The position numbers were made by a program, and so were the translations under genes. From Desulfomonilia bacterium (GTDB lineage Bacteria > Desulfobacterota > Desulfomonilia > UBA1062): 64,000 nt of DNA. The stretch spans positions 34,038 to 98,037 of the forward strand of contig JBEKDT010000017.1 of NCBI GenBank assembly GCA_050014195.1. The letters run 5' to 3'. The notes beneath the pieces were generated by a model that saw nothing but the letters and a program-made list of their open reading frames with translations, did no database searches and was not told the origin of the DNA. Shown here piece after piece: positions 11,923 through 27,993 of the stretch; positions within the stretch are counted from its first letter, which is position 1, and each line of letters starts with the position of its first letter.

Positions 11923-13029
11923 ATGAATGTACTCCATATAATATCGGGAGACCTATGGGCAGGGGCTGAGGTTCAAGCAAATTCACTTGTTCTTTCATTA
12001 GCAAAGATTGAGAATTTTAACTTGCATGTTATTACCTTTAATAAGGGTATACTTGCTTTAAAACTGCATAGAGAAGGCATACCAGTTACCATTTTTGATG
12101 AGAATAAGCATTCAATGATCGCCTTGATTTTAGGATGTTTACAGGTAATGAAGACCTTTCAACCTGATATTGTACATGTTCATGGATTCAAGGAGAATCT
12201 CTTGGGAGGAATTGCTGCTAGGCTTGTTCAAGACAGGGTTATGATACGAACCCATCATGGTAAGGGTATGATCGGTTCCACGCAAAAATATAACATGATT
12301 GAGCGCTTCAATGCTAACTTTCTAACAAATAAAATTATTGCAGTTTCTCATGATCTCAAGAGGTTCCTGCAGGAGCACGGGCTTCCTGCTCCAAAGATCA
12401 CGGTTATACATAATGGTATAGAAGTGCATACCTCTGTCAATGATAAGATAATTAAGAAACTATGTGTGGAGTTGGGAATACCTGATGATATGAAGATTAT
12501 AGGCACTGTGGGGAGACTTGTCCCCATAAAAGATCATAAGACTTTTCTGTTTGGCGCAAAATTGATTTTGGAGAGCGAACCCAATGTAAGATTTGTGATT
12601 GTTGGTGATGGACCTCTGATGGCTGAGCTTAAAAAACAGTCCTATGAACTCGATATAGCGACACATGTATGTTTCACAGGATTCAGGGAAGATACGGATA
12701 TCCTACTAAACATGTTTGATGTGTTCTGCCTTACATCAATTCATGAAGGAATTCCCATGGCTCTACTCGAGGCCATGAGCCTTGGAAAACCCATTGTGGC
12801 CACACGTGTCGGTGGAATAAGTGAAGTGATTGATGATAATGGCAGTGGATTGCTGATTGACTCTGAAAATCCCCAATCTTTCGCTGATGCATGCATCAAA
12901 GTCCTGCGAGATAAAAACCTTAGGGCATCCCTTTCCGAACGAGCCGTTTCAGTGGTGAAGGAAAAATTTACCTTGGATGTTACTGTAAGGTTAACTCAAG
13001 ATCTATACCGGAGGGTTGTACAATCATGA
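11923..13029 (+). CDS. Glycosyltransferase family 1 (GT4)
   Basis: It has 'MNVLHIISGDLWAGAEV' and 'EGIPMALLEAMSLGKPIVATRVGGISEVIDDNGSGLL'. Confidence 0.8.
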   Translation: MNVLHIISGDLWAGAEVQANSLVLSLAKIENFNLHVITFNKGILALKLHREGIPVTIFDENKHSMIALILGCLQVMKTFQPDIVHVHGFKENLLGGIAARLVQDRVMIRTHHGKGMIGSTQKYNMIERFNANFLTNKIIAVSHDLKRFLQEHGLPAPKITVIHNGIEVHTSVNDKIIKKLCVELGIPDDMKIIGTVGRLVPIKDHKTFLFGAKLILESEPNVRFVIVGDGPLMAELKKQSYELDIATHVCFTGFREDTDILLNMFDVFCLTSIHEGIPMALLEAMSLGKPIVATRVGGISEVIDDNGSGLLIDSENPQSFADACIKVLRDKNLRASLSERAVSVVKEKFTLDVTVRLTQDLYRRVVQS

Positions 13030-14222
13030 ACATCCTCTATATCTGGGATGCAGATTACCCTTGGGATGTCCGGGTGGAGAAGATCTGTTCAACCTTGGCT
13101 AGTCATGGTCATAAAGTTCATATTGCTGCAAGGAACCTTAAAAGACTCCCGGAATATGAGATCAGTTCTGATCTGATGATCCATCGACTCAAAGCATGGC
13201 AAAATGCGAGAATGAATTATTTACTCTCGTTCCCTGCTTTTTTTAACCCAGTCTGGAGCCATTTCCTTGACAGGATCATCGGAGACAATGGTATTGATAT
13301 TATCATCGTCCGCGACCTCCCCATGGCCATCGCAGGAATTTGGGCAGGAAAGCGCCACAACATTCCTGTTATCTTTGATATGGCAGAAGATTATGTTGCC
13401 ATGGTATGGGATATCTGGAGAGCAAGGAAGTTTCAAGCGCTGAACTTTCTGGTAAGGAACCCCTATCTTGCAAAGCTCGTTGAAAATTACGTCTTCAAGA
13501 AGTCTGATCAAATTCTTGTTGTTGTAGAGGAGGCAAGAGACCTTGTCATTGCAAGAGGCGTGATGCCTGAAAAGGTGACAATAGTTGGCAACACTCCTGT
13601 CTTGGATGATTTCATTCAGGCCGATGTTGTTTCAAATGAAATTATTGATCAGATACGAAGCAGGCACTCTGTCATTTATACCGGAGGCATCCAAATGGGC
13701 AGGGGAATACAGGTGGTCTTCGATGCCATACCCGAGATTGTAAAGGAGATAGCCGATTTCCTTTTTGTGATTGTGGGAGATGGATATGCAACACCAATAC
13801 TTAAAGAGATGATGAGGGAAAAAAAAGTTCAGGACCATGTACTTTGGGTTGGCTGGGTTGACCATAAGTTTATTTTTGATTACATCAGAGCCTGCAAGGC
13901 AGGTATAATTCCTCATTTTACATCTGATCATGTGCACACAACAATCCCGAACAAAATATTTGACTACATGGGATTAGGTTTACCGGTGGTTTCCTCTGAT
14001 GCTGTACCTATGAAGAGGATTCTGGAACAGGAGATATGCGGTGTTACTTTTAAGAGTGGTGACCCAATAGAATTAGGAAGAGCTATCGTAAGTACATATA
14101 TGTCTGATGTTAACTATGGGATGAATGGAATCAGTGCAGTAAAAGAAAAATATAATTGGGCGGAAGATAAAGATAGATTACTTAAGGTTATATCAAGCAT
14201 AAAAAAGAAGAAGTTCAATTGA
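13026..14222 (+). CDS. Glycosyltransferase family 1 (GT4-like)
   Basis: The C-terminus 'TIPNKIFDYMGLGLPVVSSD…GVTFKSGDP' is GT1-like. It overlaps the upstream gene by ATGA. Confidence 0.7.
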   Translation: MNILYIWDADYPWDVRVEKICSTLASHGHKVHIAARNLKRLPEYEISSDLMIHRLKAWQNARMNYLLSFPAFFNPVWSHFLDRIIGDNGIDIIIVRDLPMAIAGIWAGKRHNIPVIFDMAEDYVAMVWDIWRARKFQALNFLVRNPYLAKLVENYVFKKSDQILVVVEEARDLVIARGVMPEKVTIVGNTPVLDDFIQADVVSNEIIDQIRSRHSVIYTGGIQMGRGIQVVFDAIPEIVKEIADFLFVIVGDGYATPILKEMMREKKVQDHVLWVGWVDHKFIFDYIRACKAGIIPHFTSDHVHTTIPNKIFDYMGLGLPVVSSDAVPMKRILEQEICGVTFKSGDPIELGRAIVSTYMSDVNYGMNGISAVKEKYNWAEDKDRLLKVISSIKKKKFN

Positions 14223-14423: not shown

Positions 14424-14617
14424 ATATTGGCTTATCCAGATATACAGTATGACTATGTTGATACCATTCCGATATTATTACGCAAAGGCCTTATGTGACA
14501 TTAAGCCGAATGATGGACTGGAAAGGGTCGTTAAGCGAATGAAATGATCAAGATTCAGAAATGGGAATTCGAAGTACAAAAGATTCTCGCTAATTGACCG
14601 GGAAAGTCGAAGAACCA

Positions 14618-16138
14618 ATGCGTGTTAAGAATTGGGAAATGAAAGAGCAATCAGATACCGTGGAGGTATCCGCAGATGTAGACGGCTTTCGCCTGTGGTT
14701 CCGATCACCAAAGTCCTATCCAGTTTCAAGAACAGGCGATCCCTTCCTGGCATCCGCGCTTCTTCCGGCGATGCGCCAAGGAGAGAAGCTTGAGTTTGAC
14801 CCACGCCTGCCCGTTTCCCCGAAGTTACTGAGAAATGCTTTTGTGCTCCAGGAAATTTTCCATTCCTGGAATCCTGAAGAATTGAGAATGATCCCCGTCA
14901 GCGCTAAGACATCACCTGCCGAGCCGCTTAATACTGGCGCCATGTCCTTCTTCTCGGGAGGCGTGGACAGCATGTACACTTTTCTGAAGCGTAAGAATGA
15001 GCTCAGCCATGTGGTTAATATATATGGATTCGATTTCTTCTTCAACAGCGGGGATGCCTCGACATTCTCGGTTGCTGACCTCAAAGACTTGGCGCATTTC
15101 GCATGGAAGCTGATGTTACCGGTTGGCCCGGTGTCTGCCTACTTAAAGGGCATGCTCTCGAAAACAACGCTGCAAACTCTATCAAATTACGTAGATTCGG
15201 GCTCAGATCCAGGAGCAGTGGAAACAAGTCTGGTAGAGGATCTTAACAAGATCATCTCCGGGCAGTTGATCTACGACAGAAAGCGCTTTGCGGGTGTCAA
15301 CTTGCGGCCGCAAACAAGACATTTTATGTCGCGGGACCTGAAGGGAGAGGACCTGAGCGGCCTGAACCGGCTTCTTCTGGAGGACGCTTATCCACGTGAA
15401 ATATCGGGAAAGTATAATGGAGCCTACCAGACGGCCATCGAGCGCAACACCTGCTTCGTTCAAAGCTTTGGGAAGACCCTCGTCCCTGTCGAGAATAATC
15501 ATTATGCTTTTGGATATCGCTACAATCTGAGTAGAAATTTAACACAGGGAAGTGCCTTGGCCAGTGTCGCGCTTCTCCTTGGGTTTCCTCAAGTCTATGT
15601 GCCATCTGCTTATACTTACAGGCAGCTATGTCCTTTGGGTTCGCACCCGCTGACGGATGGGCTATGGTCGAATGAATGTGTAGAAATCATACACGATGGC
15701 TGCGAGGCGGGACGGACAGATAAGCTCAAGATGATATGCGAATGCGAATCAGCTCTTACGAATTTAAGGGTCTGCTTCGATAATGTGAATATCAATTGTG
15801 GAAAGTGTGCAAAGTGTTTGCGCACAATGATGCCCCTAAAATTGCTTCGTGCCTCTGCCGCCCCTTTCCCAACTCTTCCTTCCCTCAAAGTAATTCGGAA
15901 AAGCCGTATCTCTGATGATATCGAAACGAGCTTCTTCAAGGAGACGGTCGACCTTGCTTTGCAGACAGGAGACCAAGAAATGCGGTATGCTTTATGCGCA
16001 TGTATGAAAAGGAATGAACTATTAAAGCTCCTAATAGATCTCGATAAGGTGCTCCTGGGGGGATTCATCAAGCGTGCATATCGAAGAATAGTGCCTGGTA
16101 TAGGGATCCGTCGAATTGATACTACCCCGAGAGATTGA
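14618..16138 (+). CDS. PP-loop ATP pyrophosphatase superfamily protein with a C-terminal Cys cluster; putative amidotransferase/amide ligase
   Basis: It has an SGGxDS motif in 'SFFSGGVDSMYTF' and a Cys cluster 'CFDNVNINCGKCAKC' (C-x7-C-x2-C-x2-C), reminiscent of QueC/ExsB-type zinc sites. There is no glutaminase domain. The track start at 14594 is a TTG; the first ATG is at 14618. The gene is GC-richer than its neighbours. Confidence 0.5.
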   Translation: MRVKNWEMKEQSDTVEVSADVDGFRLWFRSPKSYPVSRTGDPFLASALLPAMRQGEKLEFDPRLPVSPKLLRNAFVLQEIFHSWNPEELRMIPVSAKTSPAEPLNTGAMSFFSGGVDSMYTFLKRKNELSHVVNIYGFDFFFNSGDASTFSVADLKDLAHFAWKLMLPVGPVSAYLKGMLSKTTLQTLSNYVDSGSDPGAVETSLVEDLNKIISGQLIYDRKRFAGVNLRPQTRHFMSRDLKGEDLSGLNRLLLEDAYPREISGKYNGAYQTAIERNTCFVQSFGKTLVPVENNHYAFGYRYNLSRNLTQGSALASVALLLGFPQVYVPSAYTYRQLCPLGSHPLTDGLWSNECVEIIHDGCEAGRTDKLKMICECESALTNLRVCFDNVNINCGKCAKCLRTMMPLKLLRASAAPFPTLPSLKVIRKSRISDDIETSFFKETVDLALQTGDQEMRYALCACMKRNELLKLLIDLDKVLLGGFIKRAYRRIVPGIGIRRIDTTPRD

Positions 16139-16641: not shown

Positions 16642-18396
16642 ATGAAAAAATTTACATTTAATCTGTTTCACGGGCAGAAGCCCTCCAATAATCAGGAATT
16701 TATAAAATGTTTCCCTACCTGGTGGTACTATACTGAAGGAATACCTGTAAAAGCAGGTGACTTAAATGGAAATGCTAAGTGGCTTCTGGCGGGTCGGCTC
16801 TTAAATGATCAGGATCCGAGTAAAATTATAGATTATTTTTATAGGCGACGTGATTACGAGTATCTATATCAAATTGATGGCCAGTTCATTTTTATTCTGT
16901 ATTTTGAGAATGATGGAAGCGTTGAGATATATCGCGACCGTATTGGTACATTCCCAATTGCATATGCACAAGGTCGAAATGGTATTGCCATATCTGTAGA
17001 TATTAATGACGTAAAGGATATGACCGGTATAGTTCCTTCACCATCAACCGGTATCTTTGAACAATGGCCATTATATCGCAAAACATTTGCACCGGTTTCA
17101 CCATTTTATGAAATTCATACCCTTGCCCCGGAGCATTCTTTACGTATCACAGGCTCTTCTTTTAATGAGATCAGTCACCCCATGTGTTTCCCTACTGAAG
17201 AAGAATATCCTGATATGAATATATCGAGCCAGGTCTTAGGTGACGTACTTTCACGATCGATCCAGAAGAGAATTGAGATTTCAAAGAGAATGGGGGTCTT
17301 TCTCAGCGGGGGGAATGATTCCAGTTTGATTGTGGCAATTGTTAGAAAGTTCTATTTAAAAAAACTGAGAACACTCTTTGTCACATTTGAAGATAACCCT
17401 AGGGATTATGGTCATCATGCCCAGGAGGTAGCCGACAGGTTCGGCACCGATCATTCTTCTGTCACATTGAGCCCGAGAGACTATGTTGGAGTCTGGGCAG
17501 ACACGATTAAAGTGCTGCAAACGCCTGTTCCTATGCCGTGTCATATAGGGATTCATCATGCCTTAAAAATGCTTTCAGGTGATGTTGATTTGATGATTGA
17601 TGGCGATGGTGCTGATACGGTTTTTGGAAGCTCAATATGGCCAGAGATGATATTTTTATCACGTATTAATAGATTTATCCCAACATACCTGAAAGATGGT
17701 ATCGGAAGATTGGCACATTCAATGTCTTGTAATACGACCATAGTGCGAATAGCGGAGATGATTAAGACGGCCCTTAATTCTTCTCTCTATGAATACCCCC
17801 ATGTAAATGCAGCAATGATTTCTGAAAGTGAATTCAATCAGATCTTTCTAAGAGGTGACTGGCAACAGGCAGTTCATTTCAGACAAGGCTTCGCAAGGGG
17901 TGATTTCTATAAAGGATTGTTTTCTTATCTTATGTTGCATGGTATACCGGAAGATCTCGCCACCACTGTCCGCTTGGGTTTGTCGCAGGGCATTTTCTTT
18001 GCGTATCCTTTCTTGGATTATGGTTTATTGCAGGCATCAATGCGATTGCCCAATAAACATCGGTATCATTACCGCATCCGTAAGGCGCCTTTGAAAAAAT
18101 ATTCTTTGAATTATTTCGACAAGGATTTCGTATATAAACCAAAGGAAGGTTTCGGTGTTCCTCTTGCTTCATGGTTCACGAAGAAAGAATTTGAGCCTTT
18201 CCTGATGCTGCCTCTCGAAGAGCGCAGCTTAAAACGTGGGTGGTGGAAGGAACTCGAGTTAAAGAGGATAATAGATTTGCACCGGAGGGGAGAGGGCAAT
18301 GACAGTTCAGCAGAGGCTATACCATGGATTGTAATCAATTTGGAATTATGGGCTCGTATATGTATCGATGGGGATTCTCCGAGTCAGTATAAATAA
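16642..18396 (+). CDS. Asparagine synthetase-like PP-loop protein lacking the N-terminal Cys nucleophile
   Basis: It has a PP-loop 'GVFLSGGNDSSLIVAI'. An AsnB-like N-domain remnant, 'IDGQFIFILYF…YRDRIGTFPIAY', is present, but the protein begins MKKFTF with no Cys2. There is an in-frame stop 3 codons upstream. Confidence 0.7.
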   Translation: MKKFTFNLFHGQKPSNNQEFIKCFPTWWYYTEGIPVKAGDLNGNAKWLLAGRLLNDQDPSKIIDYFYRRRDYEYLYQIDGQFIFILYFENDGSVEIYRDRIGTFPIAYAQGRNGIAISVDINDVKDMTGIVPSPSTGIFEQWPLYRKTFAPVSPFYEIHTLAPEHSLRITGSSFNEISHPMCFPTEEEYPDMNISSQVLGDVLSRSIQKRIEISKRMGVFLSGGNDSSLIVAIVRKFYLKKLRTLFVTFEDNPRDYGHHAQEVADRFGTDHSSVTLSPRDYVGVWADTIKVLQTPVPMPCHIGIHHALKMLSGDVDLMIDGDGADTVFGSSIWPEMIFLSRINRFIPTYLKDGIGRLAHSMSCNTTIVRIAEMIKTALNSSLYEYPHVNAAMISESEFNQIFLRGDWQQAVHFRQGFARGDFYKGLFSYLMLHGIPEDLATTVRLGLSQGIFFAYPFLDYGLLQASMRLPNKHRYHYRIRKAPLKKYSLNYFDKDFVYKPKEGFGVPLASWFTKKEFEPFLMLPLEERSLKRGWWKELELKRIIDLHRRGEGNDSSAEAIPWIVINLELWARICIDGDSPSQYK

Positions 18397-18463
18397 AATA
18401 TGGAAGATAATTATAAAAAATCTTAAGTAGATACAAGGACTGCTTCTAGAAAAGGTAGATAAA

Positions 18464-19600
18464 ATGAAGATTGGTATTATACGAACTTCGCATAAGGAAA
18501 ATGAACGTCGTGTCCCGATATATCCGGAACACTTACCATGGATTGACCTTGAGTTGAGGAAACATCTTGTTTTCGAGAGTAATTATGGGCAGGATTATGG
18601 CTTTTCAGATGAATATTTTATTCGACATCAATCAAGTTTGTCTGACCGCCAGGGACTATTTAAGACATGTGATATGTTAATTCTACCGAAACCTATTCTT
18701 CAAGATTATGAACAGATGAAGGAATTTCAGACAATATGGGGATGGCATCATTGTGTCCAGGGTAGGAAAATTTCCCAGGCAGCAATTGATCGAAAATTGA
18801 CTTTGATTGCCTGGGAGGCCATGCACCAATGGAGTAAAGGCGGAGAACGCCTTATGCACTCTTTTTATAAAAACAATGAAATAGCTGGTTACTCTGCTGT
18901 TCTACACGTCTTGGAGTTGCTGGGTGTTGATGGGCACTATGGACCGAGGAAAAATGTTATTATTATTGGATACGGTTCAGTCAGTCGCGGAGCAATCTAT
19001 GCTCTTCAGGGAAGAGGATACAATAATATTCATGTCTATACCCGACGCCCAGTACATTTAGTAGCAGATCAGAATCCCGATGTGTATTATCATCATCTAG
19101 AAGTTGCACCAAATGGTCAGATGTTTGGGGTCCATAATGATAGATCAAGACGTCCTTTCGTTGAAGAACTTGCTGAAGCAGATATTATCTGCAATGGTAT
19201 TCTTCAGGATACAGATAATCCTCTGATATTTGTAGATGAAAAAAATATTGATCTTCTAAAACCTCGGTCTGTAATTATTGATATCAGTTGCGATGAGGGT
19301 ATGGGCTTTTCTTTTGCACGTCCAACGACATTTAAAGACCCCATTTTTTCAGTAGGACAAAATATCACTTACTATTCCGTTGACCATATTCCATCTTATC
19401 TTTGGAATGCGGCCTCAAGGGAAATTTCAAGAGTTGTGCTATCTTTTCTGCCGATTTTAGCCGGGGGAATTCAATCCTGGTGTGAATGTGAGACTGTTAA
19501 AAAAGCCATTGAGATACGTAATGGCGTTATACAAAACCCCAAAATACTGTCATTTCAGAATCGACAAGAGGAATATCCACACCTAGAAGTAATTACATAA
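18464..19600 (+). CDS. N5-(1-carboxyethyl)-L-ornithine synthase homologue (AlaDH/PNT superfamily, opine-forming NAD(P)H reductase)
   Basis: Segments recalled from memory match Lactococcus CeoA in order: 'MKIGIIRTSHKENERRVPIYPEHL', 'IWGWHHCVQG', the Rossmann motif 'NVIIIGYGSVSRGAIYA', 'ADIICNGI', and 'IIDISCDEGMGFSF…FKDPIF'. Confidence 0.6.
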   Translation: MKIGIIRTSHKENERRVPIYPEHLPWIDLELRKHLVFESNYGQDYGFSDEYFIRHQSSLSDRQGLFKTCDMLILPKPILQDYEQMKEFQTIWGWHHCVQGRKISQAAIDRKLTLIAWEAMHQWSKGGERLMHSFYKNNEIAGYSAVLHVLELLGVDGHYGPRKNVIIIGYGSVSRGAIYALQGRGYNNIHVYTRRPVHLVADQNPDVYYHHLEVAPNGQMFGVHNDRSRRPFVEELAEADIICNGILQDTDNPLIFVDEKNIDLLKPRSVIIDISCDEGMGFSFARPTTFKDPIFSVGQNITYYSVDHIPSYLWNAASREISRVVLSFLPILAGGIQSWCECETVKKAIEIRNGVIQNPKILSFQNRQEEYPHLEVIT

Positions 19601-19711
19601 TAATGTGTTAACATCCCCAATAATAACCATATTTGATGCTATTGGGTGTCTCGCTGAAGACCATTCTTTTGCATCATACAAAATAGGGAATTAAGCAGTA
19701 GCCAAAGATAT

Positions 19712-21049
19712 ATGCATCCATTCATAGCCAAACATCTCATTTATTATCCAATCCAGCTCCTTAGGGGCCAGATAGTCAGAAGATATAAACACCGGGTTAT
19801 CTCCTGCCAAATTGCACCTACCAAAGTGATTTATGAAATCCGTGATAAGAAGATATGTGACCTGATCAAGTATGCCTATAACTATATTCCCTACTATCGT
19901 GAAAAATTTGATGAGCGAGATATTAATCCAGACCGGATCAAAGGATTTAATGATCTGTCATGTCTTCCAATACTGTCTAAGCTTGATATTTTGACTAATG
20001 AACATAATCTCATTTCACACAATTGTAGCCAAAAACTGTATACCAGAAAAACCAGCGGATCGACCGGAATGACCCTCCACTTTCAGAAAGAGGCCAGGGC
20101 ACTGGCGCTCAATGATGCCGTCATGTACCGCTGCTATGCATGGTATGGTATCGATATCGGGGATAAACAAGTTAGGTTCTGGGGGGTGCCGGTAGACCCC
20201 GCTCTGAGACGAAGGGAAAAGGTCAAAGACTTCATCCTAAACAGGATCAGGATCTCGGCTTTCGATATCTCCGAGCAATCCTGTCTGGCGCAGTACCAGA
20301 GAATAAAGCGGTTTAGGCCGGCATATTTTTACGGTTATACTACCGCCATCTACGGTTTCTGCTCCTTTGCACAGAAGCTCGGCCTTGACCTTAATACACT
20401 TGGTCTGAGGGCCGTCATCTGCACTGCTGAGAAGATGTACCCGCATCATCAGGATCTTTTCGATAAGGTGTTCAAATGCCCTGTGGTTGATGAATACGGT
20501 TCCAGCGAGAACGGCATCATCGCCTTCCAGTGTAAAGAGGGGAGCATGCATGTGATGGCGGATCATCTGGCCGTTGAATTTGTAGATGAAGCCGGGCAGA
20601 GGGTTAAACCCGGCGAGCTTGGAAGGATTGTTATAACGGATCTCAATGGATACGCCATGCCCCTTATACGGTATGAGATAGGCGATATGGGAAGGTATAC
20701 GGAACAAGCATGTTCATGTGGAGTAACTTTGCCGGTGATGGACATCATTGAAGGGCGCAAAGAGGATTTCATCCGGACCCGGGAAGGAAAGCTCATCCAT
20801 GCGGCCTACCTCTGTTATACCCTGAAGGATGACGCCGTCCATGAATTCAAAATGTATCAGAAGGATCTCAACAGGTTTCTTGTCCAGATAGTCAAATCGA
20901 ATAAGTTTAATGCAGACTCCCAGAAGAAGCTCGAACATAAACTCAGGACAGCCCTGGGGGATAGCGTAGTTTTTGAGTTCCAGTTTCTGGAAAGGATTCC
21001 GAGAGAGGCATCAGGCAAGCTCAGATATTTCATCTCTGAAATCCGGTAA
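19712..21049 (+). CDS. Phenylacetate-CoA ligase-like adenylate-forming enzyme (CapK/PaaK family)
   Basis: It has the AMP-binding P-loop 'TRKTSGSTGMTLHF'. Its size and context match CapK-type capsule-locus ligases. Confidence 0.65.
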   Translation: MHPFIAKHLIYYPIQLLRGQIVRRYKHRVISCQIAPTKVIYEIRDKKICDLIKYAYNYIPYYREKFDERDINPDRIKGFNDLSCLPILSKLDILTNEHNLISHNCSQKLYTRKTSGSTGMTLHFQKEARALALNDAVMYRCYAWYGIDIGDKQVRFWGVPVDPALRRREKVKDFILNRIRISAFDISEQSCLAQYQRIKRFRPAYFYGYTTAIYGFCSFAQKLGLDLNTLGLRAVICTAEKMYPHHQDLFDKVFKCPVVDEYGSSENGIIAFQCKEGSMHVMADHLAVEFVDEAGQRVKPGELGRIVITDLNGYAMPLIRYEIGDMGRYTEQACSCGVTLPVMDIIEGRKEDFIRTREGKLIHAAYLCYTLKDDAVHEFKMYQKDLNRFLVQIVKSNKFNADSQKKLEHKLRTALGDSVVFEFQFLERIPREASGKLRYFISEIR

Positions 21050-21165
21050 CGATTACAGAGAATAATCCAGCAGGCAAAAGGCATAACCTGATAATCATAT
21101 AAAAAGCTCAACAAGGCCATTGCGGATGACGTTCAAGAAGGAAAAAAGAGGAGCAGGGAACCGCG

Positions 21166-21435
21166 ATGGAATTGTATGCCGGATTGGATCTGCATTCACA
21201 GTACACCTACATTGGAGTGCTTGAGAAAGGGAGTATGAGGAAGGTGTTTCAGATGAGGGTATCGAATGAACTGCAGAGGATTATCTCTGCACTGGAGCCA
21301 TTCAGAAATGAGCTCCAAGGTATTGCGATAGAGAGTACTTTCAATTGTTACTGGCTTGTGGATGGGCTTATGGGTAGAGGGCAAAAGGGGAAAATCGGGC
21401 AGCAGATACAGCTCGAATTCATGGTGTTTGAATGA
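21166..21435 (+). pseudogene. IS110-family transposase, N-terminal remnant (truncated)
   Basis: The sequence 'MELYAGLDLHSQYTYIGVL…IAIESTFNCYWLVDGL' matches the IS110 DEDD domain and terminates after 89 aa. Its sequence differs from the 10256 remnant. Confidence 0.6.
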
Positions 21436-21651
21436 AGAATGAACCTAAATCACCAGATCCGATCCTGACCTGGAAATATGCAAAGGTCTCGTATGGAGTG
21501 TGGGAATACCACCGGAAAGAGCAGATAATGGAGGAAATAGGCAGTAAACTAAGCTTTATTTCTTGAGATTTTCATGAAAAAAGCACCAATCAGTTTCCTC
21601 CGATTCCTTTCTTGTCCTTGTGCAAAGGTCTCTGTATGGAGAACATCTCAA

Positions 21652-22746
21652 ATGGACAGTGAAATTTATGATAGATATTCAATCGAAGTGGATAGCATAG
21701 GAGCAGAAGAATGGAACACTGTGCTCAGAGTATTCTCTGATGCGTCTATATTTCAAACATATGAGTATGGGGTCGAAAATTGGGGAAAGAACCATCTTAG
21801 TCATATAGTATTAAGAAAGGATAATGATATAGTGGCTGCTTCCCAAGTCTGGGTGGTAGAACTCCCGATTTTAAAATGTGGTTTTGCCCATATTCCGTGG
21901 GGCCCCATGTGGAAATGCAAAAATCGAGAAAGAGATGTACAGACTGTTAGAATGATGCTTAGAGCGCTAAGAGATGAGTATGTGGAAAAGAGAGGACTTC
22001 TGCTGAGGTTAAGGGGTTACTCGGTATCGGGTACGGATGAAGGCAATGAAGTTATTCAACAGTTGAGCGAAGAAGGATTTACGTTCCAAAAGAGGGAAGC
22101 CGCATATCGTACGTATCGAATTAATCTGACCAAGAGTTTGGAAGAACTGCGTACTAAGTTTAAAGGAAACTGGCGGAGAGATTTAATCAAGGCAGAGAGA
22201 CAAGATCTAGAGATAGAAATAGGGAATAGTGTTTCCATGTTAGTGGTATTTTCAGAGATATATAAAGATATGGTTAGGAGAAAAGGCTTTAAAGAGTATG
22301 TTGCAGACATGAACAAATACATCGAAATGCAGAGAAGGTATCGGGATGATTTGAAGATGAATATCTTTTTATGTAAGCATGAGGGAACTTATGTAGCTGG
22401 CGCTGTTGTTCCGGCAATAGGTGATACGGGGATGTATTTATTAGGGGCAACGAGTACTATATGTTTTGAAAAGAAATTACTTGCTTCTCACCTGATCCAG
22501 TGGCGAGTTCTCAGTTGCTTGAAATCAAATGGATTCCGATACTATGACTTACGTGGAGGGATCGATGGTGACATGGAGGGAGTTAGGCATTTCAAAAGCG
22601 GTCTTTCTGGGGAGGAGATTCACTACATAGGTTCGTATGAGTGTTCTCATAGAGTGTTAAGTGAGGTTGCCGTACGTACTGGTGAACATATTCAAAGAAT
22701 GAAAGCCGGTCTACAAAATTTTGTGTGGAAGTTAGCAAGTAAATAA
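21652..22746 (+). CDS. FemAB-family / GNAT-fold acyl(aminoacyl)transferase-like protein
   Basis: Its size and the motif 'RYYDLRGG…HFKSGLSG' resemble the FemAB/BioF2-like acetyltransferase domain. The track start at 21574 gives a 26-aa hydrophobic or Cys-rich leader 'MKKAPISFLRFLSCPCAKV'. The ATG at 21652 (MDSEIY…) is the more likely start. Either start is possible. Confidence 0.5.
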   Translation: MDSEIYDRYSIEVDSIGAEEWNTVLRVFSDASIFQTYEYGVENWGKNHLSHIVLRKDNDIVAASQVWVVELPILKCGFAHIPWGPMWKCKNRERDVQTVRMMLRALRDEYVEKRGLLLRLRGYSVSGTDEGNEVIQQLSEEGFTFQKREAAYRTYRINLTKSLEELRTKFKGNWRRDLIKAERQDLEIEIGNSVSMLVVFSEIYKDMVRRKGFKEYVADMNKYIEMQRRYRDDLKMNIFLCKHEGTYVAGAVVPAIGDTGMYLLGATSTICFEKKLLASHLIQWRVLSCLKSNGFRYYDLRGGIDGDMEGVRHFKSGLSGEEIHYIGSYECSHRVLSEVAVRTGEHIQRMKAGLQNFVWKLASK

Positions 22747-22837
22747 GCAGATCTTTGAAGTCAATAGCTCTGATAGTGGCCTGGCAATGTCGCTTTCCTG
22801 GAAATAATCGTACTATTCGAGAGGATAAGTTAAACCT

Positions 22838-24541
22838 ATGAAAGGGCGTATTACATTCGGTTACCCCGATGATACGAAAGATGTTATTGTTCGCCTTCAG
22901 GGAGAGATATGGTCGATCCAAGGACAGTCAACTCAGGGCATGGATATTCTTGAGCGGATTAAAATTGAATACTTGAATAAAGGAGTTGCTCTATTTGAAA
23001 AATTAGATGGATCATTTTCTCTTGTCATCGAAGATCATCAAAAAATGAAACTCTTTCTTGTACGAGACAAGCTCGGCACTATTCCTCTGTATCACGCAAA
23101 AAAAAGATGTACATTTACCTGGGGCAATCTCATAAGTGATATCCTTTCTGACCTGGAAATTGAAACGTCAGCCAATCATGATGTAATTCATGAATACTTA
23201 GTGTTTCGTTATGTTAGCGGGAGGAATACTCTTTTTCAAGGAATTCATGAGCTTTTACCGGCACATTATCTAGAGGTTGACCTTAGAAAAGGAGAAGTAG
23301 AGGAAAAGCAGTATTGGGATATTCCTTATCCCTGTAAATCTGAAATGATTAAAGATAATGATGAAACCTGTGTCGATAAAATAGAAGAGATTCTAATACG
23401 TATTCTCAAAAGAACTTTAAGTAAGAATTGTCGCTATGGAATCATGTTGAGCGGTGGGCTTGATTCAAGCCTGATAGCAGCTCTTGCGTCAAAACATGTT
23501 AATCATGGTTTCCCAACATTCTTTATAGGATTTACAGATTATGAGAGTGATCGCTCTCATGATGCCCAAATGGTAGCAGAAACATATCATATGATCCATT
23601 CAAATTTCTATGTTAACTCAAAACAGTATGCTGAAGGTCTTATAGAAGCAATCAGAACCAACGAGGAACCACTTAACCATCCCGGTCATGTAGGAAGGGT
23701 TCTTTTCGATTCTCATACAAAAGATAAAGTTGATGCTCTCCTTATGGGAGAAGGAGTCGATACAATGTTTTGTGGGGCAAAGGCTTACCCACTTCTTAAA
23801 TATGGTTATATGTTCAATCCATTCAGGAAATTAACTAGGAGAATATTTTCATTGATAGACCCAGAAATAATTCCCGACTCACATAAGCGGTACTACACAA
23901 AGATAAGAGATGCATTTGTCATGAATGCTGATGAGTATATGATCCGAACTTTTGCAGCGGCAGAATTTCAAGAGGCAAGTGATCTATTGGAGCTTGAGGC
24001 TGATATGAGCTATCTTAACTATTATAAAAGCTTTATATCTGAATGTACGAGAGAAAATGTTCTTGAGAAATACCTTATGCTCAATCAGCACACATTTATA
24101 GTTGAAGTACTGAATTCTGATGCAAAGTATAGAGAATTAAACCAAATAATTAATTATTATCCATTCCTGGATGTCGAATTACTATCGTTTTCAAATCACA
24201 TTCCATTTAAAATACGGACCAAGGGGTTCACGGGAAAATATCTCATCAAGAAACTCGCTGAGAGATATTTTTCCAAGCATTTCATATATCAGCAAAAAGA
24301 GGGCTTTGGTGTGCCTTTGAAGACCTACTTCCAGGATCCAGAGAGTATGGGGAGATATTTTGACCTCCTTTTGGAGAAGAGGACAATGGAAAGAGGAATT
24401 TTTAAAAGGAGAGAACTCTCTAATTTTGTTGAAGGATTTCGGAAAGGCGAAATGCCTTCTGAGAGTTATGAGTCTTTGCTCTGGACTGCAATTAACCTTG
24501 AGTTATGGTACAGGATTTTTATCGATAGGAATGGTGTATGA
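22838..24541 (+). CDS. Asparagine synthetase-like PP-loop protein lacking the N-terminal Cys nucleophile
   Basis: It has a PP-loop 'IMLSGGLDSSLIAALA'. An AsnB-like N-domain, 'DGSFSLVIEDHQKMKLFLVRDKLGTIPLYH', is present, but the protein begins MKGRITFGY and an in-frame TAA lies 3 codons upstream. Confidence 0.7.
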   Translation: MKGRITFGYPDDTKDVIVRLQGEIWSIQGQSTQGMDILERIKIEYLNKGVALFEKLDGSFSLVIEDHQKMKLFLVRDKLGTIPLYHAKKRCTFTWGNLISDILSDLEIETSANHDVIHEYLVFRYVSGRNTLFQGIHELLPAHYLEVDLRKGEVEEKQYWDIPYPCKSEMIKDNDETCVDKIEEILIRILKRTLSKNCRYGIMLSGGLDSSLIAALASKHVNHGFPTFFIGFTDYESDRSHDAQMVAETYHMIHSNFYVNSKQYAEGLIEAIRTNEEPLNHPGHVGRVLFDSHTKDKVDALLMGEGVDTMFCGAKAYPLLKYGYMFNPFRKLTRRIFSLIDPEIIPDSHKRYYTKIRDAFVMNADEYMIRTFAAAEFQEASDLLELEADMSYLNYYKSFISECTRENVLEKYLMLNQHTFIVEVLNSDAKYRELNQIINYYPFLDVELLSFSNHIPFKIRTKGFTGKYLIKKLAERYFSKHFIYQQKEGFGVPLKTYFQDPESMGRYFDLLLEKRTMERGIFKRRELSNFVEGFRKGEMPSESYESLLWTAINLELWYRIFIDRNGV

Positions 24542-24561: not shown

Positions 24562-25713
24562 ATGTACACGAATCCTCAGAAATTGGGAATTATTAAACCA
24601 CTCAGTCACATGAATGAACTTTTCAAAATCGAGGATATGTGGAGAAATATATATGAAACGGTATCTCCTAATTCAATTTTTATTTCTTTTGACTATATTA
24701 TGCTGTGGTATAATTGCTTTGCTAGGCCCGAGCAGGTGAGGGTCTATCCAGCATATGAAGGTGATAAAATTATAGGTTATCTTCCATTAATATTAAATAA
24801 AAAAGGGCCATTTCGGTTTCTGTCAAGCCTTACCAATCTACATTGCTTTCACCCTGCTGCACTAATTGCTGAAGGTTATGAAGAGACATTTTCTAACAGT
24901 TGCTTGCACGCAATATTTTCAGATAAATGCGGCTGGGATGTTTTTCAATACCGTAGCGGCTACTCCTTCCAATATGGTCTAAGTTTGAGCATACTAAGTC
25001 CATTAGCCTATCACTTCAAAGAAATCAAACTACCAACATATTCTATGCTTATACCAGGTTCTTTTGAAGAATATTTCAATAAGCATCTATCCCCTCAAAT
25101 GCGTAAAAATGCAAAAAGCTCAAAAAAAAGGCTACAAACAGTTCCCTCATATAGATTTTGCCACTATACAGGAGATGATGCTGTTGCATCATGGCCTACG
25201 TTTCTATCGATTGAAGATTCTGGGTGGAAGGGAGTAAAAGGTTCATCATTAAAGAAGCTTCCTCAGAACTATCATTCATATTATGTAGGCCTCATCGATA
25301 TGTTATCTAAAAATAACCAGTTACACATGTATTTTCTCGAAATCAATGGCCACCCTGTTGCGGGTACATTCTGTTATGTGGATCAAGATGTGTTTCACGC
25401 TTGGAAGGCCGGATACGTAGAAGAATTTTCCTCGCTCTCTCCCTCAACCCTGCTCTTACTTTATATCATAGAAGATCTCAATACTAATTTTCCAATGGTG
25501 AAACGTCTGCACATGTTTCCTGGTGATTTTGGCTATAAACACCGTTATGTTAACGAAGAATCTTTTTATTCTGAAGTCGTCTTGTACGATAGAACAATTC
25601 TCGGAAGTTCCGCACATATTCTTTCCCCGATAAAACAAAGAGTTGAGCTACTTCCAGGTATGTCTGCTGCCATTGGGTTTATTAGAAAGCATTTTTTTAG
25701 AGATGATGATTAA
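24562..25713 (+). CDS. CelD/BioF2-like GNAT-fold acetyltransferase-domain protein (FemAB-like)
   Basis: At 383 aa its architecture is typical of PF13480-like proteins found in EPS loci. It has a strong RBS (GGAGG) and lies 20 nt after the AsnB-like gene. Confidence 0.5.
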   Translation: MYTNPQKLGIIKPLSHMNELFKIEDMWRNIYETVSPNSIFISFDYIMLWYNCFARPEQVRVYPAYEGDKIIGYLPLILNKKGPFRFLSSLTNLHCFHPAALIAEGYEETFSNSCLHAIFSDKCGWDVFQYRSGYSFQYGLSLSILSPLAYHFKEIKLPTYSMLIPGSFEEYFNKHLSPQMRKNAKSSKKRLQTVPSYRFCHYTGDDAVASWPTFLSIEDSGWKGVKGSSLKKLPQNYHSYYVGLIDMLSKNNQLHMYFLEINGHPVAGTFCYVDQDVFHAWKAGYVEEFSSLSPSTLLLLYIIEDLNTNFPMVKRLHMFPGDFGYKHRYVNEESFYSEVVLYDRTILGSSAHILSPIKQRVELLPGMSAAIGFIRKHFFRDDD

Positions 25714-26168: not shown

Positions 26169-26801
26169 ATGAAAAAAACTTTCATGACAATCGCAGCACT
26201 TTTTATTGTGCTCGGATTCACAGCATCAGTAGGAGCAACTACAATTCAAATTGTCGGCAGCTATTCGACTCTGGATTCGCTGACCTTCACTCTTCTTGGC
26301 CACACCTACCACGACCAGTTGGTGGGTGAGTTTAATCTCCTTATCGATAGCAAGCCGGAAACAGGATATTGTGTTGACTTGGGTCATCTTTTATATGTTC
26401 CCAGCGGACCCTTTAATGTAAACCTTACTAGCGATCTGACCGATGAGGGCGATGTCCCCAACGGGTATGAAGCAGCATGGTTGTGGAACTATGTGGGTGA
26501 TGCTCTAGATAAGGACCATAGAGCAGCGTTGCAGTTGGCAATATGGGATGTTGTGTTTGGGCCGGTTACCGGTATCTCCGAGCCGGCAGTCGCCGCAGAA
26601 TACAATGCTTACTTAGCAGATCTTGCATTATATAGCTCATTTAATGGTGCAGGGTATGCTATTGCTGAACTAGGTGACCTACGCACACCATACCAGGATC
26701 TGCTGGTAAAAACCCCCGCCCCCGTTCCTGAGCCCATGACACTGTTGCTTCTCGGGTCAGGTCTTCTCGGACTGGCAGGATTCAGAAGGAAGATGAAATA
26801 G
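26169..26801 (+). CDS. PEP-CTERM sorting-domain protein (exosortase cargo)
   Basis: It has a signal peptide 'MKKTFMTIAALFIVLGFTASVGA'. The C-terminus 'PVPEPMTLLLLGSGLLGLAGFRRKMK' is the PEP motif, then a TM helix, then a basic tail. Confidence 0.85.
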   Translation: MKKTFMTIAALFIVLGFTASVGATTIQIVGSYSTLDSLTFTLLGHTYHDQLVGEFNLLIDSKPETGYCVDLGHLLYVPSGPFNVNLTSDLTDEGDVPNGYEAAWLWNYVGDALDKDHRAALQLAIWDVVFGPVTGISEPAVAAEYNAYLADLALYSSFNGAGYAIAELGDLRTPYQDLLVKTPAPVPEPMTLLLLGSGLLGLAGFRRKMK

Positions 26802-27989: not shown

Positions 27990-27993
27990 AATT

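What the first reader, a model, noticed from the sequence alone, without database searches (positions are those of the whole stretch)
16642..24541. Two asparagine-synthetase paralogues that have lost the Cys2 glutaminase nucleophile
Both proteins keep the AsnB N-domain fold remnants, such as 'DGQF…RDRIG…P' and 'DGSF…RDKLG…PLYH', and an intact SGGxDS PP-loop. They start MKKFTF and MKGRIT, with in-frame stops immediately upstream. Canonical AsnB and the exosortase-associated AsnB paralogues begin MCG. Loss of the nucleophile in two paralogues in one locus suggests a switch from glutamine-dependent amidation to direct use of another amine. That amine could be an amino acid or an opine.
Basis: seen in the sequence. 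Interest (0 to 1): 0.6.

Follow-up and report, generated by a model that had tools for sequence, protein, structure and literature searches.

The report
Glutaminase-dead AsnB-like ligases in EPS locus
Two asparagine-synthetase-like enzymes in an exopolysaccharide gene cluster have lost the glutamine-splitting half of their active machinery but keep the ATP-using half, so they most likely attach some other amine, or free ammonia, to acid groups on the sugar polymer, a step whose enzymes are barely known.

Summary
ORFs 16642-18396 (A, 584 aa) and 22838-24541 (B, 567 aa) are two-domain AsnB-fold proteins (AlphaFold pLDDT 93-94). They have intact PP-loops and conserved catalytic Asp and Lys. They have no Cys2 nucleophile and no glutamine-site residues. 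In-frame stops lie just upstream, and no MCG occurs in any upstream frame. The loss is ancient, not an artefact. A belongs to a tight family of about 49 clusters, all about 583 aa, sharing a distinctive N-terminal motif. B belongs to a smaller family starting MKG, MNG, MHG or MYG. They share 28% identity. Both sit in a Wzx/Wzy, PEP-CTERM-type exopolysaccharide locus. In related loci these proteins nearly always accompany a CapK/PaaK-like adenylating enzyme. VpsH, a protein with the same family-level annotation, is required for the glycine amide of Vibrio VPS. One A subtype also accompanies an AlaDH/carboxyethylornithine-synthase-like dehydrogenase, which elsewhere pairs with TupA-type amidoligases. 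My best reading is that A and B are glutamine-independent, ATP-dependent amide ligases that decorate the polymer. The amine is unknown, and free ammonia is not excluded. They are a new variant of the known glutaminase-less AsnB-like kind. Function is untested.

The parts
16642..18396 (+). AsnB-like protein A (584 aa), family A, subtype with the DGDGADT motif. The N-domain (about residues 1-190) has no Cys2. The synthetase domain covers about residues 200-584.
   Evidence: AlphaFold pLDDT 93. Foldseek matches TsnB9, BLS, CarA, ASNS and AsnB at E 1e-17 to 1e-20.
17305..17322 (+). PP-loop SGGNDS of A (residues 222-227). S222, G223, G224, D226 and S227 are invariant across family A.
17599..17619 (+). 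DGDGADT of A (residues 320-326). It aligns with E. coli AsnB SGEGSDE: D322 with E348, D325 with D351, and T326 with E352.
18136..18162 (+). KPKEGFGVP of A. K501 aligns with AsnB K449.
22838..24541 (+). AsnB-like protein B (567 aa), family B. Its N-domain is shortened by about 60 residues and lacks Cys2, the HRGPD/Arg49 segment, Asn74 and Asp98.
   Evidence: AlphaFold pLDDT 93.7. Foldseek.
23450..23467 (+). PP-loop SGGLDS of B (residues 205-210).
23747..23764 (+). GEGVDT of B (residues 304-309). E305, D308 and T309 correspond to AsnB E348, D351 and E352.
24290..24316 (+). QQKEGFGVP of B. K487 is invariant in the alignment with canonical AsnB and is the K449 equivalent.
18464..19600 (+). AlaDH/PNT-family dehydrogenase (378 aa), a candidate amino-acid or opine synthase. 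It neighbours the A subtype found here.
19712..21049 (+). CapK/PaaK-like adenylate-forming enzyme (445 aa), the most conserved partner of families A and B.
   Evidence: Pfam CapK_C on homologues. VpsH precedent (PMC13463779).
21574..22746 (+). FemAB-family protein (390 aa).
   Evidence: 89% identical to the FemAB gene of L001.
24562..25713 (+). Acetyltransf_6 (FemAB-like GNAT) protein (383 aa).
14594..16138 (+). 514-aa protein of unknown family with a PP-loop-like SGGVDS (14954-14971) and CGKCAKC (15797-15817). Its homologues lie directly upstream of the AlaDH-like gene in other loci.
13026..14222 (+). GT4 glycosyltransferase, conserved in synteny just upstream of family A genes (63-73% identity).
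10780..11919 (+). UDP-GlcNAc 2-epimerase WecB (above the NCBIfam cut-off), the ManNAc(A) route. It is conserved in related loci.
7087..8106 (+). Polysaccharide deacetylase, recurrent in related loci.
26169..26801 (+). PEP-CTERM sorting-signal protein that closes the locus.
29079..30404 (-). UDP-glucose 6-dehydrogenase (TuaD-like), a source of uronic acid. A 74%-identical gene lies beside the related locus L006.

Best explanation
A and B are members of two old families of AsnB-like, PP-loop adenylate-forming enzymes. Their N-terminal Ntn-glutaminase domain survives as a fold but is catalytically dead. They act in the cytoplasm, since they need ATP and have no export signal. Their likely targets are intermediates of a Wzx/Wzy, PEP-CTERM-type exopolysaccharide. 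The proposed chemistry has two steps. First, the intact synthetase site adenylates a carboxylate. This could be the C6 carboxylate of a uronic acid (GlcA or ManNAcA type) on a nucleotide- or lipid-linked unit. It could also be the free carboxylate of an amino acid already attached to that uronic acid by the neighbouring CapK-like ligase. Second, the acyl-adenylate is captured by an amine from solution rather than by glutamine-derived ammonia, giving an amide-linked side group. For protein A, the amine is probably made or tailored by the adjacent AlaDH/carboxyethylornithine-synthase-like dehydrogenase, so it would be an amino acid or an N-carboxyethyl (opine-type) amino acid. Shown here: loss of the nucleophile, retention of the fold and of the ATP-site residues, family conservation, and exopolysaccharide context with conserved neighbours. 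Inferred: catalytic activity, the identity of carboxylate and amine, and the order of steps relative to the CapK-like and FemAB-like enzymes.
For: There is no Cys2 and no hidden MCG. The Cys-less N-termini are conserved in about 40 family A and 9 family B homologues, while canonical hits start MCG. The glutamine-site positions are deleted or variable. The PP-loop and the equivalents of AsnB D351 and K449 are invariant. The models are confident two-domain structures (pLDDT 93 and 93.7). Their best structural matches are TsnB9, beta-lactam synthetase, carbapenam synthetase, ASNS and AsnB. All 13 or more related loci are exopolysaccharide clusters with GT4, Wzy, Wzx, WecB, deacetylase and PEP-CTERM or EpsI genes. 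A CapK-like gene lies adjacent or within 10 kb in most of them. CapK/PaaK-like VpsH is required for adding glycine to GulNAcA on lipid-linked VPS intermediates (PMC13463779). The AlaDH-like family sits in exopolysaccharide loci beside TupA-type ATP-grasp, RimK-like ATP-grasp, CapK-like or family A genes. The TupA-type domain of Cj1438 is a proven GlcA amidoligase (PMC11800379). The AlaDH-like gene accompanies the DGDGAD subtype of A in 5 of 6 loci, and the other subtype in 0 of 6. A UDP-glucose dehydrogenase and WecB are nearby. Amino-acid and opine amides of uronic acids are known glycan decorations (PMC10609480). AsnB-like enzymes are known to adenylate large substrates' carboxylates and to transfer nucleophiles other than ammonia, such as hydroxylamine and hydrazine (PMC13060819, PMC13622209).
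Against: No member of either family has been tested. Canonical AsnB and PesC can use free ammonia (PMC13060819), so loss of the glutaminase does not by itself imply a new amine. Because a CapK-like ligase is nearly always present, the amino-acid-to-uronate step may belong to it, which leaves the role of A and B open. One locus of the same A subtype (L008) has no AlaDH-like gene within 10 kb. The AsnB E348-equivalent varies in family A (D, E, K or Q), which might mean altered or weakened adenylation chemistry. I could not compare the window's CapK-like protein with the VpsH sequence. The co-occurrence counts are small and are not phylogenetically independent.
Confidence: 0.54

Rival explanations
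1. A and B are ammonia-dependent amidotransferases. They adenylate a polymer or sugar carboxylate and capture free NH3/NH4+, producing primary uronamides or isoglutamine-type amides. The glutaminase became dispensable, for example in ammonium-rich anoxic habitats.
For: The synthetase site is intact. AsnB-family enzymes accept ammonia directly (PMC13060819). Structurally related PP-loop enzymes include NH3-dependent NAD synthetase. Some related loci also carry a canonical MCG-AsnB, so amidation chemistry is used in these polymers.
Against: The dead N-domain is retained at full confidence and carries family-specific invariant residues (W23, W47 and G51 in family A). That suggests it gained a new role rather than decaying. 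One A subtype is linked to an amine-making dehydrogenase. Neither point is decisive.
Confidence: 0.27
2. The polarity is reversed. A and/or B adenylate a small acid, such as an amino acid side-chain or alpha-carboxylate, much as AsnB activates aspartate. They then acylate a free sugar amine exposed by the co-conserved polysaccharide deacetylase.
For: A polysaccharide deacetylase recurs in nearly all related loci. N-aminoacyl amino sugars are known in O-antigens (PMC10609480). The ancestral AsnB substrate is a small amino acid.
Against: PF01522-type deacetylases commonly act outside the cytoplasm, whereas ATP-dependent ligation needs the cytoplasm (general knowledge; not tested here). The AsnB E352 position, which I recall as substrate-proximal, is Thr in both families. 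FemAB-like enzymes in the locus already offer a route to N-aminoacylation.
Confidence: 0.1
3. A and B are intramolecular cyclases, like beta-lactam synthetase, carbapenam synthetase or lasso-peptide cyclases, making a lactam in a small molecule or peptide unrelated to the polysaccharide.
For: The closest Cys-less structural relatives are BLS and CarA. There are weak NCBIfam hits to lasso and macrolactam cyclase models.
Against: Scores are far below the curated cut-offs (26-97 bits against 525, and 37-40 against 300). No precursor peptide, RRE/protease partner or clavam/carbapenem genes appear here or in any related locus. Synteny is with glycosyltransferases.
Confidence: 0.04
4. A and B are non-catalytic pseudoenzymes or scaffolds, retained for assembling the exopolysaccharide machinery.
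For: One of the two active sites is dead. The E348-equivalent varies in part of family A.
Against: The PP-loop and the Asp and Lys of the ATP site are invariant across proteins as little as 20-40% identical. That is the pattern of a working site.
Confidence: 0.04
5. The finding is an artefact. A frameshift, mis-assembly or wrong start hides a normal MCG N-terminus.
For: None found.
Against: In-frame stops lie directly upstream, and no upstream frame holds MCG. The same N-termini occur in dozens of independent assemblies. In B, about 60 residues of the glutaminase domain are missing internally.
Confidence: 0.01

Closest known systems
Glutamine-dependent asparagine synthetase B (E. coli AsnB 1CT9, human ASNS; TIGR01536) and the XrtA/PEP-CTERM-associated amidotransferase (TIGR03108)
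   Same: Same two-domain fold, PP-loop SGGxDS, and conserved Asp and Lys of the adenylation site. TIGR03108 proteins also occur in PEP-CTERM exopolysaccharide loci.
   Different: A and B have no Cys nucleophile, and the Arg49, Asn74 and Asp98 positions are lost or deleted. HMM scores are far below the curated cut-offs (120 and 192 bits against 267; 109 and 179 against 817). They are 35-80 residues shorter than canonical relatives.
Beta-lactam synthetase (1JGT, 1MBZ) and carbapenam synthetase (1Q15)
   Same: These are AsnB-like enzymes whose N-domain is retained but lacks the glutaminase nucleophile. They adenylate a carboxylate that is then attacked by an amine which is not glutamine-derived. 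They are among the best structural matches.
   Different: They cyclise a single small molecule in antibiotic pathways. Sequence identity to A and B is 13-15%. A and B sit in polysaccharide loci with no clavam or carbapenem genes.
TsnB9 hydroxyamidotransferase (7YLZ), FzmA, PesC, TsrC and ScdTA (AsnB-like tailoring enzymes)
   Same: TsnB9 is the best sequence and structure match for B. These enzymes show that the family can act on large carboxylate substrates and deliver nucleophiles other than ammonia.
   Different: As described in the papers read here, their nitrogen comes from a glutamine-type donor (glutamylhydrazine for FzmA; glutamine or ammonia for PesC). I recall the same for TsnB9 (glutamic acid gamma-monohydroxamate). 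They work on polyketides or ribosomal peptides, not on glycans.
VpsH of Vibrio cholerae (PaaK/CapK-like) and the TupA-like ATP-grasp domain of C. jejuni Cj1438
   Same: These are the two enzymes for which there is evidence of putting an amine (glycine; serinol-P or ethanolamine-P) on a uronic-acid carboxylate of a bacterial polysaccharide. CapK-like genes flank A and B. TupA-like genes stand beside the AlaDH-like gene in other loci.
   Different: Their folds differ (ANL superfamily and ATP-grasp). A and B would be a third, PP-loop solution, or they would catalyse a further step.
Lasso-peptide and macrolactam cyclases (NF033535, NF033561)
   Same: They are Cys-less AsnB-like enzymes that form isopeptide or lactam bonds.
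   Different: Scores are far below the cut-offs. No precursor peptide or partner protease genes are present. The genomic context is different.

Membership tests
Asparagine synthetase B, glutamine-hydrolysing (TIGR01536 / EC 6.3.5.4) | N-terminal Cys nucleophile directly after Met (MCG...) | tested here: not met
   A starts MKKFTF and B starts MKGRIT. Stops lie upstream, and no MCG occurs in any frame. The N-termini are conserved in homologues.
Asparagine synthetase B, glutamine-hydrolysing (TIGR01536 / EC 6.3.5.4) | Glutamine-binding and oxyanion residues (E. coli Arg49, Asn74, Gly75, Glu76, Asp98) | tested here: not met
   In B, the HRGPD..RRLSI segment is deleted, NGEIYN becomes QGEIWS (variable within the family), and the SDTE position is variable. 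In A, residues 1-60 have no detectable match to the model, and alignments start at AsnB residue ~98-100.
Asparagine synthetase B, glutamine-hydrolysing (TIGR01536 / EC 6.3.5.4) | Whole-protein HMM score above the curated cut-off | tested here: not met
   119.7 bits (A) and 191.8 bits (B) against a cut-off of 267.1.
Asparagine synthetase B, glutamine-hydrolysing (TIGR01536 / EC 6.3.5.4) | PP-loop SGGxDS and the ATP-site Asp and Lys (D351, K449) | tested here: met
   A has SGGNDS, D325 and K501. B has SGGLDS, D308 and K487. All are invariant in the alignments.
Asparagine synthetase B, glutamine-hydrolysing (TIGR01536 / EC 6.3.5.4) | Two-domain Ntn plus PP-loop fold | tested here: met
   pLDDT 93 and 93.7. 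Foldseek E 1e-15 to 1e-21 against AsnB, ASNS and TsnB9 over about 560-640 aligned columns.
XrtA/PEP-CTERM system amidotransferase (TIGR03108) | HMM score above the cut-off and an MCG start | tested here: not met
   108.6 and 179.2 bits against 816.9. No MCG.
XrtA/PEP-CTERM system amidotransferase (TIGR03108) | Location in an exosortase/PEP-CTERM exopolysaccharide locus | tested here: inconclusive
   A PEP-CTERM protein lies at 26169-26801. Exosortase or EpsI genes occur in related loci. No exosortase was found among the window ORFs that I scanned, and not every ORF was scanned.
Glutaminase-less AsnB-like amide synthetases (BLS/CarA type) | AsnB fold with an N-domain that lacks the Cys nucleophile, plus an intact adenylation site | tested here: met
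Glutaminase-less AsnB-like amide synthetases (BLS/CarA type) | Intramolecular beta-lactam formation on CEA or carboxymethylproline; Tyr-Glu catalytic dyad | not testable with these tools
   No coordinates or reference sequences were available for a residue-level superposition. No clavam or carbapenem pathway genes are in the locus.
Lasso-peptide isopeptide cyclase / macrolactam cyclase (NF033535, NF033561) | HMM score above the cut-off; adjacent precursor peptide and leader-peptidase/RRE genes | tested here: not met
   26.2 and 97.5 bits against 525, and 37.2 and 39.6 against 300. The neighbours are glycosyltransferases and AlaDH-like, CapK-like and FemAB-like genes.
Polysaccharide uronate amidoligase (functional class: Cj1438C, VpsH) | ATP-dependent amide formation on a glycan carboxylate | not testable with these tools
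   Only context supports this: an exopolysaccharide locus, a UDP-Glc dehydrogenase and WecB nearby, and CapK-like and AlaDH-like partners. The fold differs from both known enzymes.

The most novel reading that the evidence does not exclude
Families A and B, together with their nearest Cys-less relatives, form a clade of AsnB-like glycan ligases. Working with CapK-like and FemAB-like enzymes, they build short amino-acid, opine or peptide side chains on exopolysaccharide uronic acids. The dead glutaminase domain has been repurposed as the binding or gating site for the incoming amine. This would be a third, PP-loop-based enzymatic route to amino-acid-decorated polysaccharides, and a new reaction class for the asparagine synthetase superfamily.
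Probability: 0.3. Interest if true: 0.72.

Novelty: new variant of a known kind. Interest (0 to 1): 0.55.

Why it matters
Many bacterial surface polysaccharides carry amino acids or opines amide-linked to uronic acids, and these groups shape charge, antigenicity and matrix properties. The enzymes that install them are almost unknown. In the papers I read, only a TupA-type ATP-grasp domain (C. jejuni) and the CapK-like VpsH (V. cholerae, genetic evidence, 2026) have been implicated. If the Cys-less AsnB-like families act as proposed, they would add a new reaction class to the asparagine synthetase superfamily. They would also supply annotation rules for a recurrent module in uncultured Nitrospirota, Acidobacteriota, Syntrophales and relatives, consisting of AsnB-like, CapK-like and sometimes AlaDH-like and FemAB-like genes. 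Finally, they would give glyco-engineers new amide-forming catalysts. At present these proteins are auto-annotated as 'asparagine synthase (glutamine-hydrolysing)', which the sequence evidence shows to be wrong.

Tried and rejected
- **Hidden N-terminus.** I searched three frames 600 nt upstream of each gene and all six frames of the window for [MVL]CG[IVLF]. Nothing relevant turned up.
- **Literature on Cys-less AsnB homologues in polysaccharide loci.** The searches found no direct precedent. These included the Methanococcus AglU/MMP1084 threonine-transfer lead and the S. aureus CapK/taurine lead, both recalled from memory and neither confirmed.
- **E. coli O-antigen review.** It lists amide-linked amino acids, but none of my search terms (asparagine synthetase, amidotransferase, amidation) found an enzyme in it.
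- **The 514-aa and 602-aa unknown proteins.** They gave no Pfam hits even at E = 10, no NCBIfam hits and no PDB sequence hits.
- **The 89-aa ORF at 21166-21435.** It looks to me like an IS110-type transposase N-terminus, but it has no Pfam or NCBIfam hit, so this stays unverified.
- **Non-orthologous displacement.** I first read the AlaDH-like gene's alternation between TupA-like, CapK-like, RimK-like and family A neighbours as simple displacement of one ligase by another. I weakened that reading because family A nearly always co-occurs with a CapK-like gene rather than replacing it.
- **The A plus B clade.** It has 100% bootstrap support in a neighbour-joining tree, but it may be long-branch attraction. 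I do not rely on it.
- **Residue-level mapping.** I abandoned mapping of the AsnB aspartate-binding residues (D384, R387) and of the BLS Tyr-Glu dyad as unreliable without structure coordinates.
- **Promoter and terminator scans.** Across 16-26 kb they found no more sites than the shuffled controls.

Full report
**1. The observation**

A is 16642-18396 (584 aa, MKKFTF...) and B is 22838-24541 (567 aa, MKGRIT...). In-frame stops lie 9 and 21 nt upstream of A and 12 nt upstream of B. A GAGGA-type ribosome-binding site precedes each ATG.

I translated all three frames for 600 nt upstream of each gene and scanned all six frames of the window for MCG-type starts. No hidden N-terminus appeared, and there is no canonical AsnB anywhere in the 64 kb. 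The quoted motifs are present:
- A: DGQF, RDRIG and SGGNDS.
- B: DGSF, RDKLG, PLYH and SGGLDS.

Both proteins match Pfam Asn_synthase at about 1e-44, but only the last third of the GATase_7 model. The TIGR01536 alignment begins at model position 109. The scores of 120 and 192 bits are below the curated cut-off of 267.

**2. The loss is conserved, not an artefact**

A search of 5.8 billion proteins puts A in a sharply bounded family. It has about 49 clusters at 39-78% identity, nearly all 582-586 aa. The E-value then jumps from 1e-105 to 1e-35, where canonical MCG proteins of 600-650 aa begin.

Every full-length member of family A starts with a shared motif and none starts MCG. The motif is approximately x-F-(T/S)-F-D-L-F-x-G-x3-P-S-x-D-F-x2-W-x-P-x-W-W-Y-x3-G-x-P-x3-G-x4-G-x2-W-L-L-x-G-W.

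B belongs to a smaller family (P0122-P0129, 34-56% identity, 553-592 aa) starting MKG, MNG, MHG or MYG. The next hits are MCG proteins at about 28% identity.

I aligned family B with canonical relatives. About 60 residues are missing, including the HRGPD and RRLSI (Arg49) segment. NGEIYN is replaced by QGEIWS, which itself varies within the family. The SDTE (Asp98) position is not conserved.

In A, residues 1-60 have no detectable counterpart in the AsnB models. Alignments start at AsnB/ASNS residue ~98-100.

The synthetase site, by contrast, is preserved. The PP-loop and the Asp and Lys that align with E. coli D351 and K449 are invariant across both families and across the joint alignment:
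- A: D325 and K501.
- B: D308 and K487.

AsnB E352 is Thr in both families. The E348 position is Asp in the window's A subtype, Glu in B, and Glu, Lys or Gln in the other A subtype.

**3. Fold**

AlphaFold models built from the family alignments are confident (pLDDT 93.0 and 93.7, pTM 0.92). Foldseek against the PDB aligns both domains with TsnB9, beta-lactam synthetase, carbapenam synthetase, human ASNS and E. coli AsnB. E-values are 1e-15 to 1e-21 and TM-scores 0.5-0.7. The N-domain is therefore a retained Ntn-type fold without its catalytic residues, as in BLS and CarA.

**4. How A and B relate, and how rare they are**

A and B share 28% identity over 542 aa. In a neighbour-joining tree with 42 canonical proteins, each family is monophyletic (100 and 98 of 100 bootstraps). 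Together they form a clade (100 of 100), but long-branch attraction cannot be excluded.

A profile of both families was searched against 1.84 billion 50%-identity representatives. About ten representatives belong to the two families. The next best hits (380-430 bits) also lack Cys2; four of the five (P0364, P0365, P0368, P0370) keep the SGGxDS loop, and P0369 does not. They start MRG, MTS, MAG, MSS and MRN. After that, MCG proteins dominate, making up 105 of the 149 sequences examined from the best 150 hits.

One of these near relatives, P0368 (MAGIAG...), lies in the gene order deacetylase, GT2, AsnB-like, CapK-like, then EpsI two genes further on.

In one genome for each of 185,579 species, family A was found in only six. 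All six are MAGs: Bacteriovoracaceae, two Acidobacteriota, Nitrospirae, Syntrophales and one labelled archaeon.

**5. Genomic context**

Window 1-26.8 kb, all on the + strand, is a Wzx/Wzy exopolysaccharide locus. It contains, in order:
- several GT4 glycosyltransferases, a MOP flippase, an acyltransferase_3 and a Wzy-like protein;
- a polysaccharide deacetylase and WecB (485 bits, above its cut-off);
- GT4, a 514-aa unknown protein, then A;
- an AlaDH/PNT-like dehydrogenase and a CapK/PaaK-like adenylating enzyme;
- a FemAB-like protein, B, and a FemAB-like GNAT;
- a PEP-CTERM protein.

A TuaD-like UDP-glucose dehydrogenase lies just beyond the locus on the other strand.

Related loci have the same character. 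tblastn shows conserved synteny of WecB, GT4(13026), A, sometimes AlaDH, and CapK. The identities are 63-73% for GT4, 67-73% for WecB and 66-79% for CapK, but only 41-48% for A.

A CapK-like gene is adjacent or within 10 kb in almost every locus that carries A, B or P0368. A and B occur together in L001/L002.

**6. The neighbours give the functional leads**

*CapK-like enzyme.* A 2026 study of Vibrio cholerae VPS identifies VpsH as required for adding glycine to GulNAcA. VpsH is annotated as a phenylacetate-CoA-ligase-like protein with partial similarity to CapK-like proteins. GulNAcA is made from ManNAcA on the lipid-linked disaccharide. The authors propose ATP-dependent carboxylate activation (PMC13463779). 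The window's CapK-like enzyme is therefore the best candidate for linking an amino acid to a uronic acid. I could not align it with VpsH.

*AlaDH-like protein.* It keeps the AlaDH catalytic Arg, His and Asp. It belongs to a large, well conserved family, with more than 120 clusters at 58% identity or above. JGI auto-names these 'alanine dehydrogenase' or 'N5-(carboxyethyl)ornithine synthase'.

Its close relatives (57% identity or above) sit in exopolysaccharide loci next to one of the following:
- TupA-like ATP-grasp genes, in at least 11 loci;
- CapK-like genes, in 3 loci;
- a RimK-like ATP-grasp gene, in 1 locus;
- family A genes (window, P0010 contig, L007/L009, L013, L117).

More distant relatives (55% identity or below) had none of these genes nearby; the one such locus examined (L106) has ATP-synthase and MacB-type neighbours. 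The TupA-like domain of Cj1438 is an experimentally shown amidoligase. It puts serinol-P or ethanolamine-P on the GlcA carboxylate (PMC11800379).

*Subtypes of family A.* Family A splits into a DGDGAD subtype, which includes the window protein, and a GEGAD subtype. The AlaDH-like gene accompanies 5 of 6 independent loci of the first subtype and 0 of 6 of the second or mixed type. The one-sided Fisher p is about 0.008, not corrected for phylogeny.

*Chemical precedent.* Amino-acid amides (Lys, Ser, Thr, Orn, Gly, Glu) and opine amides of uronic acids are documented in bacterial glycans. The opines include N-epsilon-(1-carboxyethyl)-lysine and alanopine (PMC10609480).

**7. Mechanism proposed**

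The AsnB-like superfamily adenylates a carboxylate at the PP-loop site and then captures a nitrogen nucleophile. Known members act on aspartate, on small beta-amino acids (BLS, CarA) and on peptide C-termini (TsrC, ScdTA, PesC, FzmA). They can deliver hydroxylamine or hydrazine instead of ammonia (PMC13060819, PMC13622209).

With a dead glutaminase, A and B must take their nucleophile from solution or from the same substrate. Given the context, I think the following most likely (probability about 0.54). They adenylate a carboxylate on a cytoplasmic exopolysaccharide intermediate. This would be a uronate C6, or the free carboxylate of an amino acid that the CapK-like ligase has already attached. 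They then couple it to an amine. For A, the amine would be supplied or tailored by the AlaDH-like enzyme.

The main rival (about 0.27) is the same chemistry with free ammonia. Minor rivals are reversed polarity (acylation of a de-N-acetylated sugar amine), lactam formation, and a non-catalytic role.

**8. Comparison with known kinds, and verdict**

A and B fail the defining tests for glutamine-dependent AsnB and for the XrtA-associated amidotransferase. They lack the nucleophile and the glutamine site, and they score below the cut-offs. They also fail the tests for lasso and macrolactam cyclases, on both scores and partner genes.

They do fit the broader known kind of glutaminase-less AsnB-like amide synthetases. 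Within it they are two uncharacterised families in a new context, polysaccharide loci, with a conserved partner set.

I rate them a new variant of a known kind. The interest is moderate, at 0.55. The chemistry itself remains inferred.

Noticed in passing
window 14594-16138 (+); also L087 5411-6934, L091 270-1424, L109 5887-7041, L090 1-525: A 514-aa protein with no Pfam, NCBIfam or PDB sequence match. It carries a PP-loop-like FFSGGVDSMYT motif (14954-14971) and a C-terminal CGKCAKC (15797-15817), which reminds me of QueC-type ATPases. Homologues (48-69% identity) with the same two motifs lie immediately upstream of the AlaDH-like gene in four other loci. It may therefore be a third ATP-dependent enzyme of the same decoration pathway.
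   Followed up: partly
window 18464-19600 and loci L086-L117: The AlaDH/PNT-like gene family is a recurrent exopolysaccharide-locus gene, not a housekeeping alanine dehydrogenase. Close relatives sit beside TupA-like ATP-grasp, RimK-like ATP-grasp, CapK-like or Cys-less AsnB-like genes. This suggests an unrecognised module for making an amine and ligating it to exopolysaccharides.
   Followed up: partly
window 21050-21573 (ORF 21166-21435, +): A 0.5-kb gap between the CapK-like and FemAB-like genes holds an 89-aa ORF (MELYAGLDLHSQYTYIGVL...). It looks to me like the N-terminus of an IS110-family transposase, but it has no Pfam or NCBIfam hit. It may be a remnant marking the junction of two modules, A-AlaDH-CapK and FemAB-B-FemAB-like.
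   Followed up: partly
window 21574-22746 compared with L001 13365-14531: The FemAB-like gene is 89% identical at protein level to the one in metagenome locus L001. Its neighbours there are only 41-66% identical to their window counterparts. This hints at recent horizontal exchange of this single gene.
   Followed up: no
window 16298-16496: The 503-bp non-coding stretch upstream of A contains a 49-nt direct repeat (71% identity, 150 nt apart). It also contains a 14-nt perfect-spacing palindrome (TTTAATCCAATGAT/ATCATTGCATTAAA at 16327-16354). These may be a regulatory site.
   Followed up: no
window 1-32000 versus 33000-64000: There is a strong base-composition step. The exopolysaccharide locus is 36-46% GC, while the right half of the window rises to 50-62% GC. 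This is consistent with the locus being a horizontally acquired island.
   Followed up: no
window 27360-28827 (-): A BKACE-family gene (3-keto-5-aminohexanoate cleavage enzyme-like, 233 bits, below its cut-off) overlaps a GNAT gene, directly between the PEP-CTERM gene and the UDP-glucose dehydrogenase. It could be lysine or beta-amino-acid metabolism linked to the decoration, or it could be unrelated.
   Followed up: no
window 8321-10129 (+): A 602-aa protein with no Pfam hit here. It is 33-42% identical to proteins in related loci, and the L007 homologue carries a Pel9A-like beta-helix annotation. It is probably a polysaccharide lyase or epimerase-type beta-helix protein of the locus.
   Followed up: partly
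L092 438-2114: Another divergent 558-aa protein with only a weak Asn_synthase match (22 bits), a GGHDS motif and no MCG start. It lies directly upstream of an AlaDH-like gene and near a TupA-like gene. It may be a further glutaminase-less PP-loop lineage in the same kind of module.
   Followed up: no
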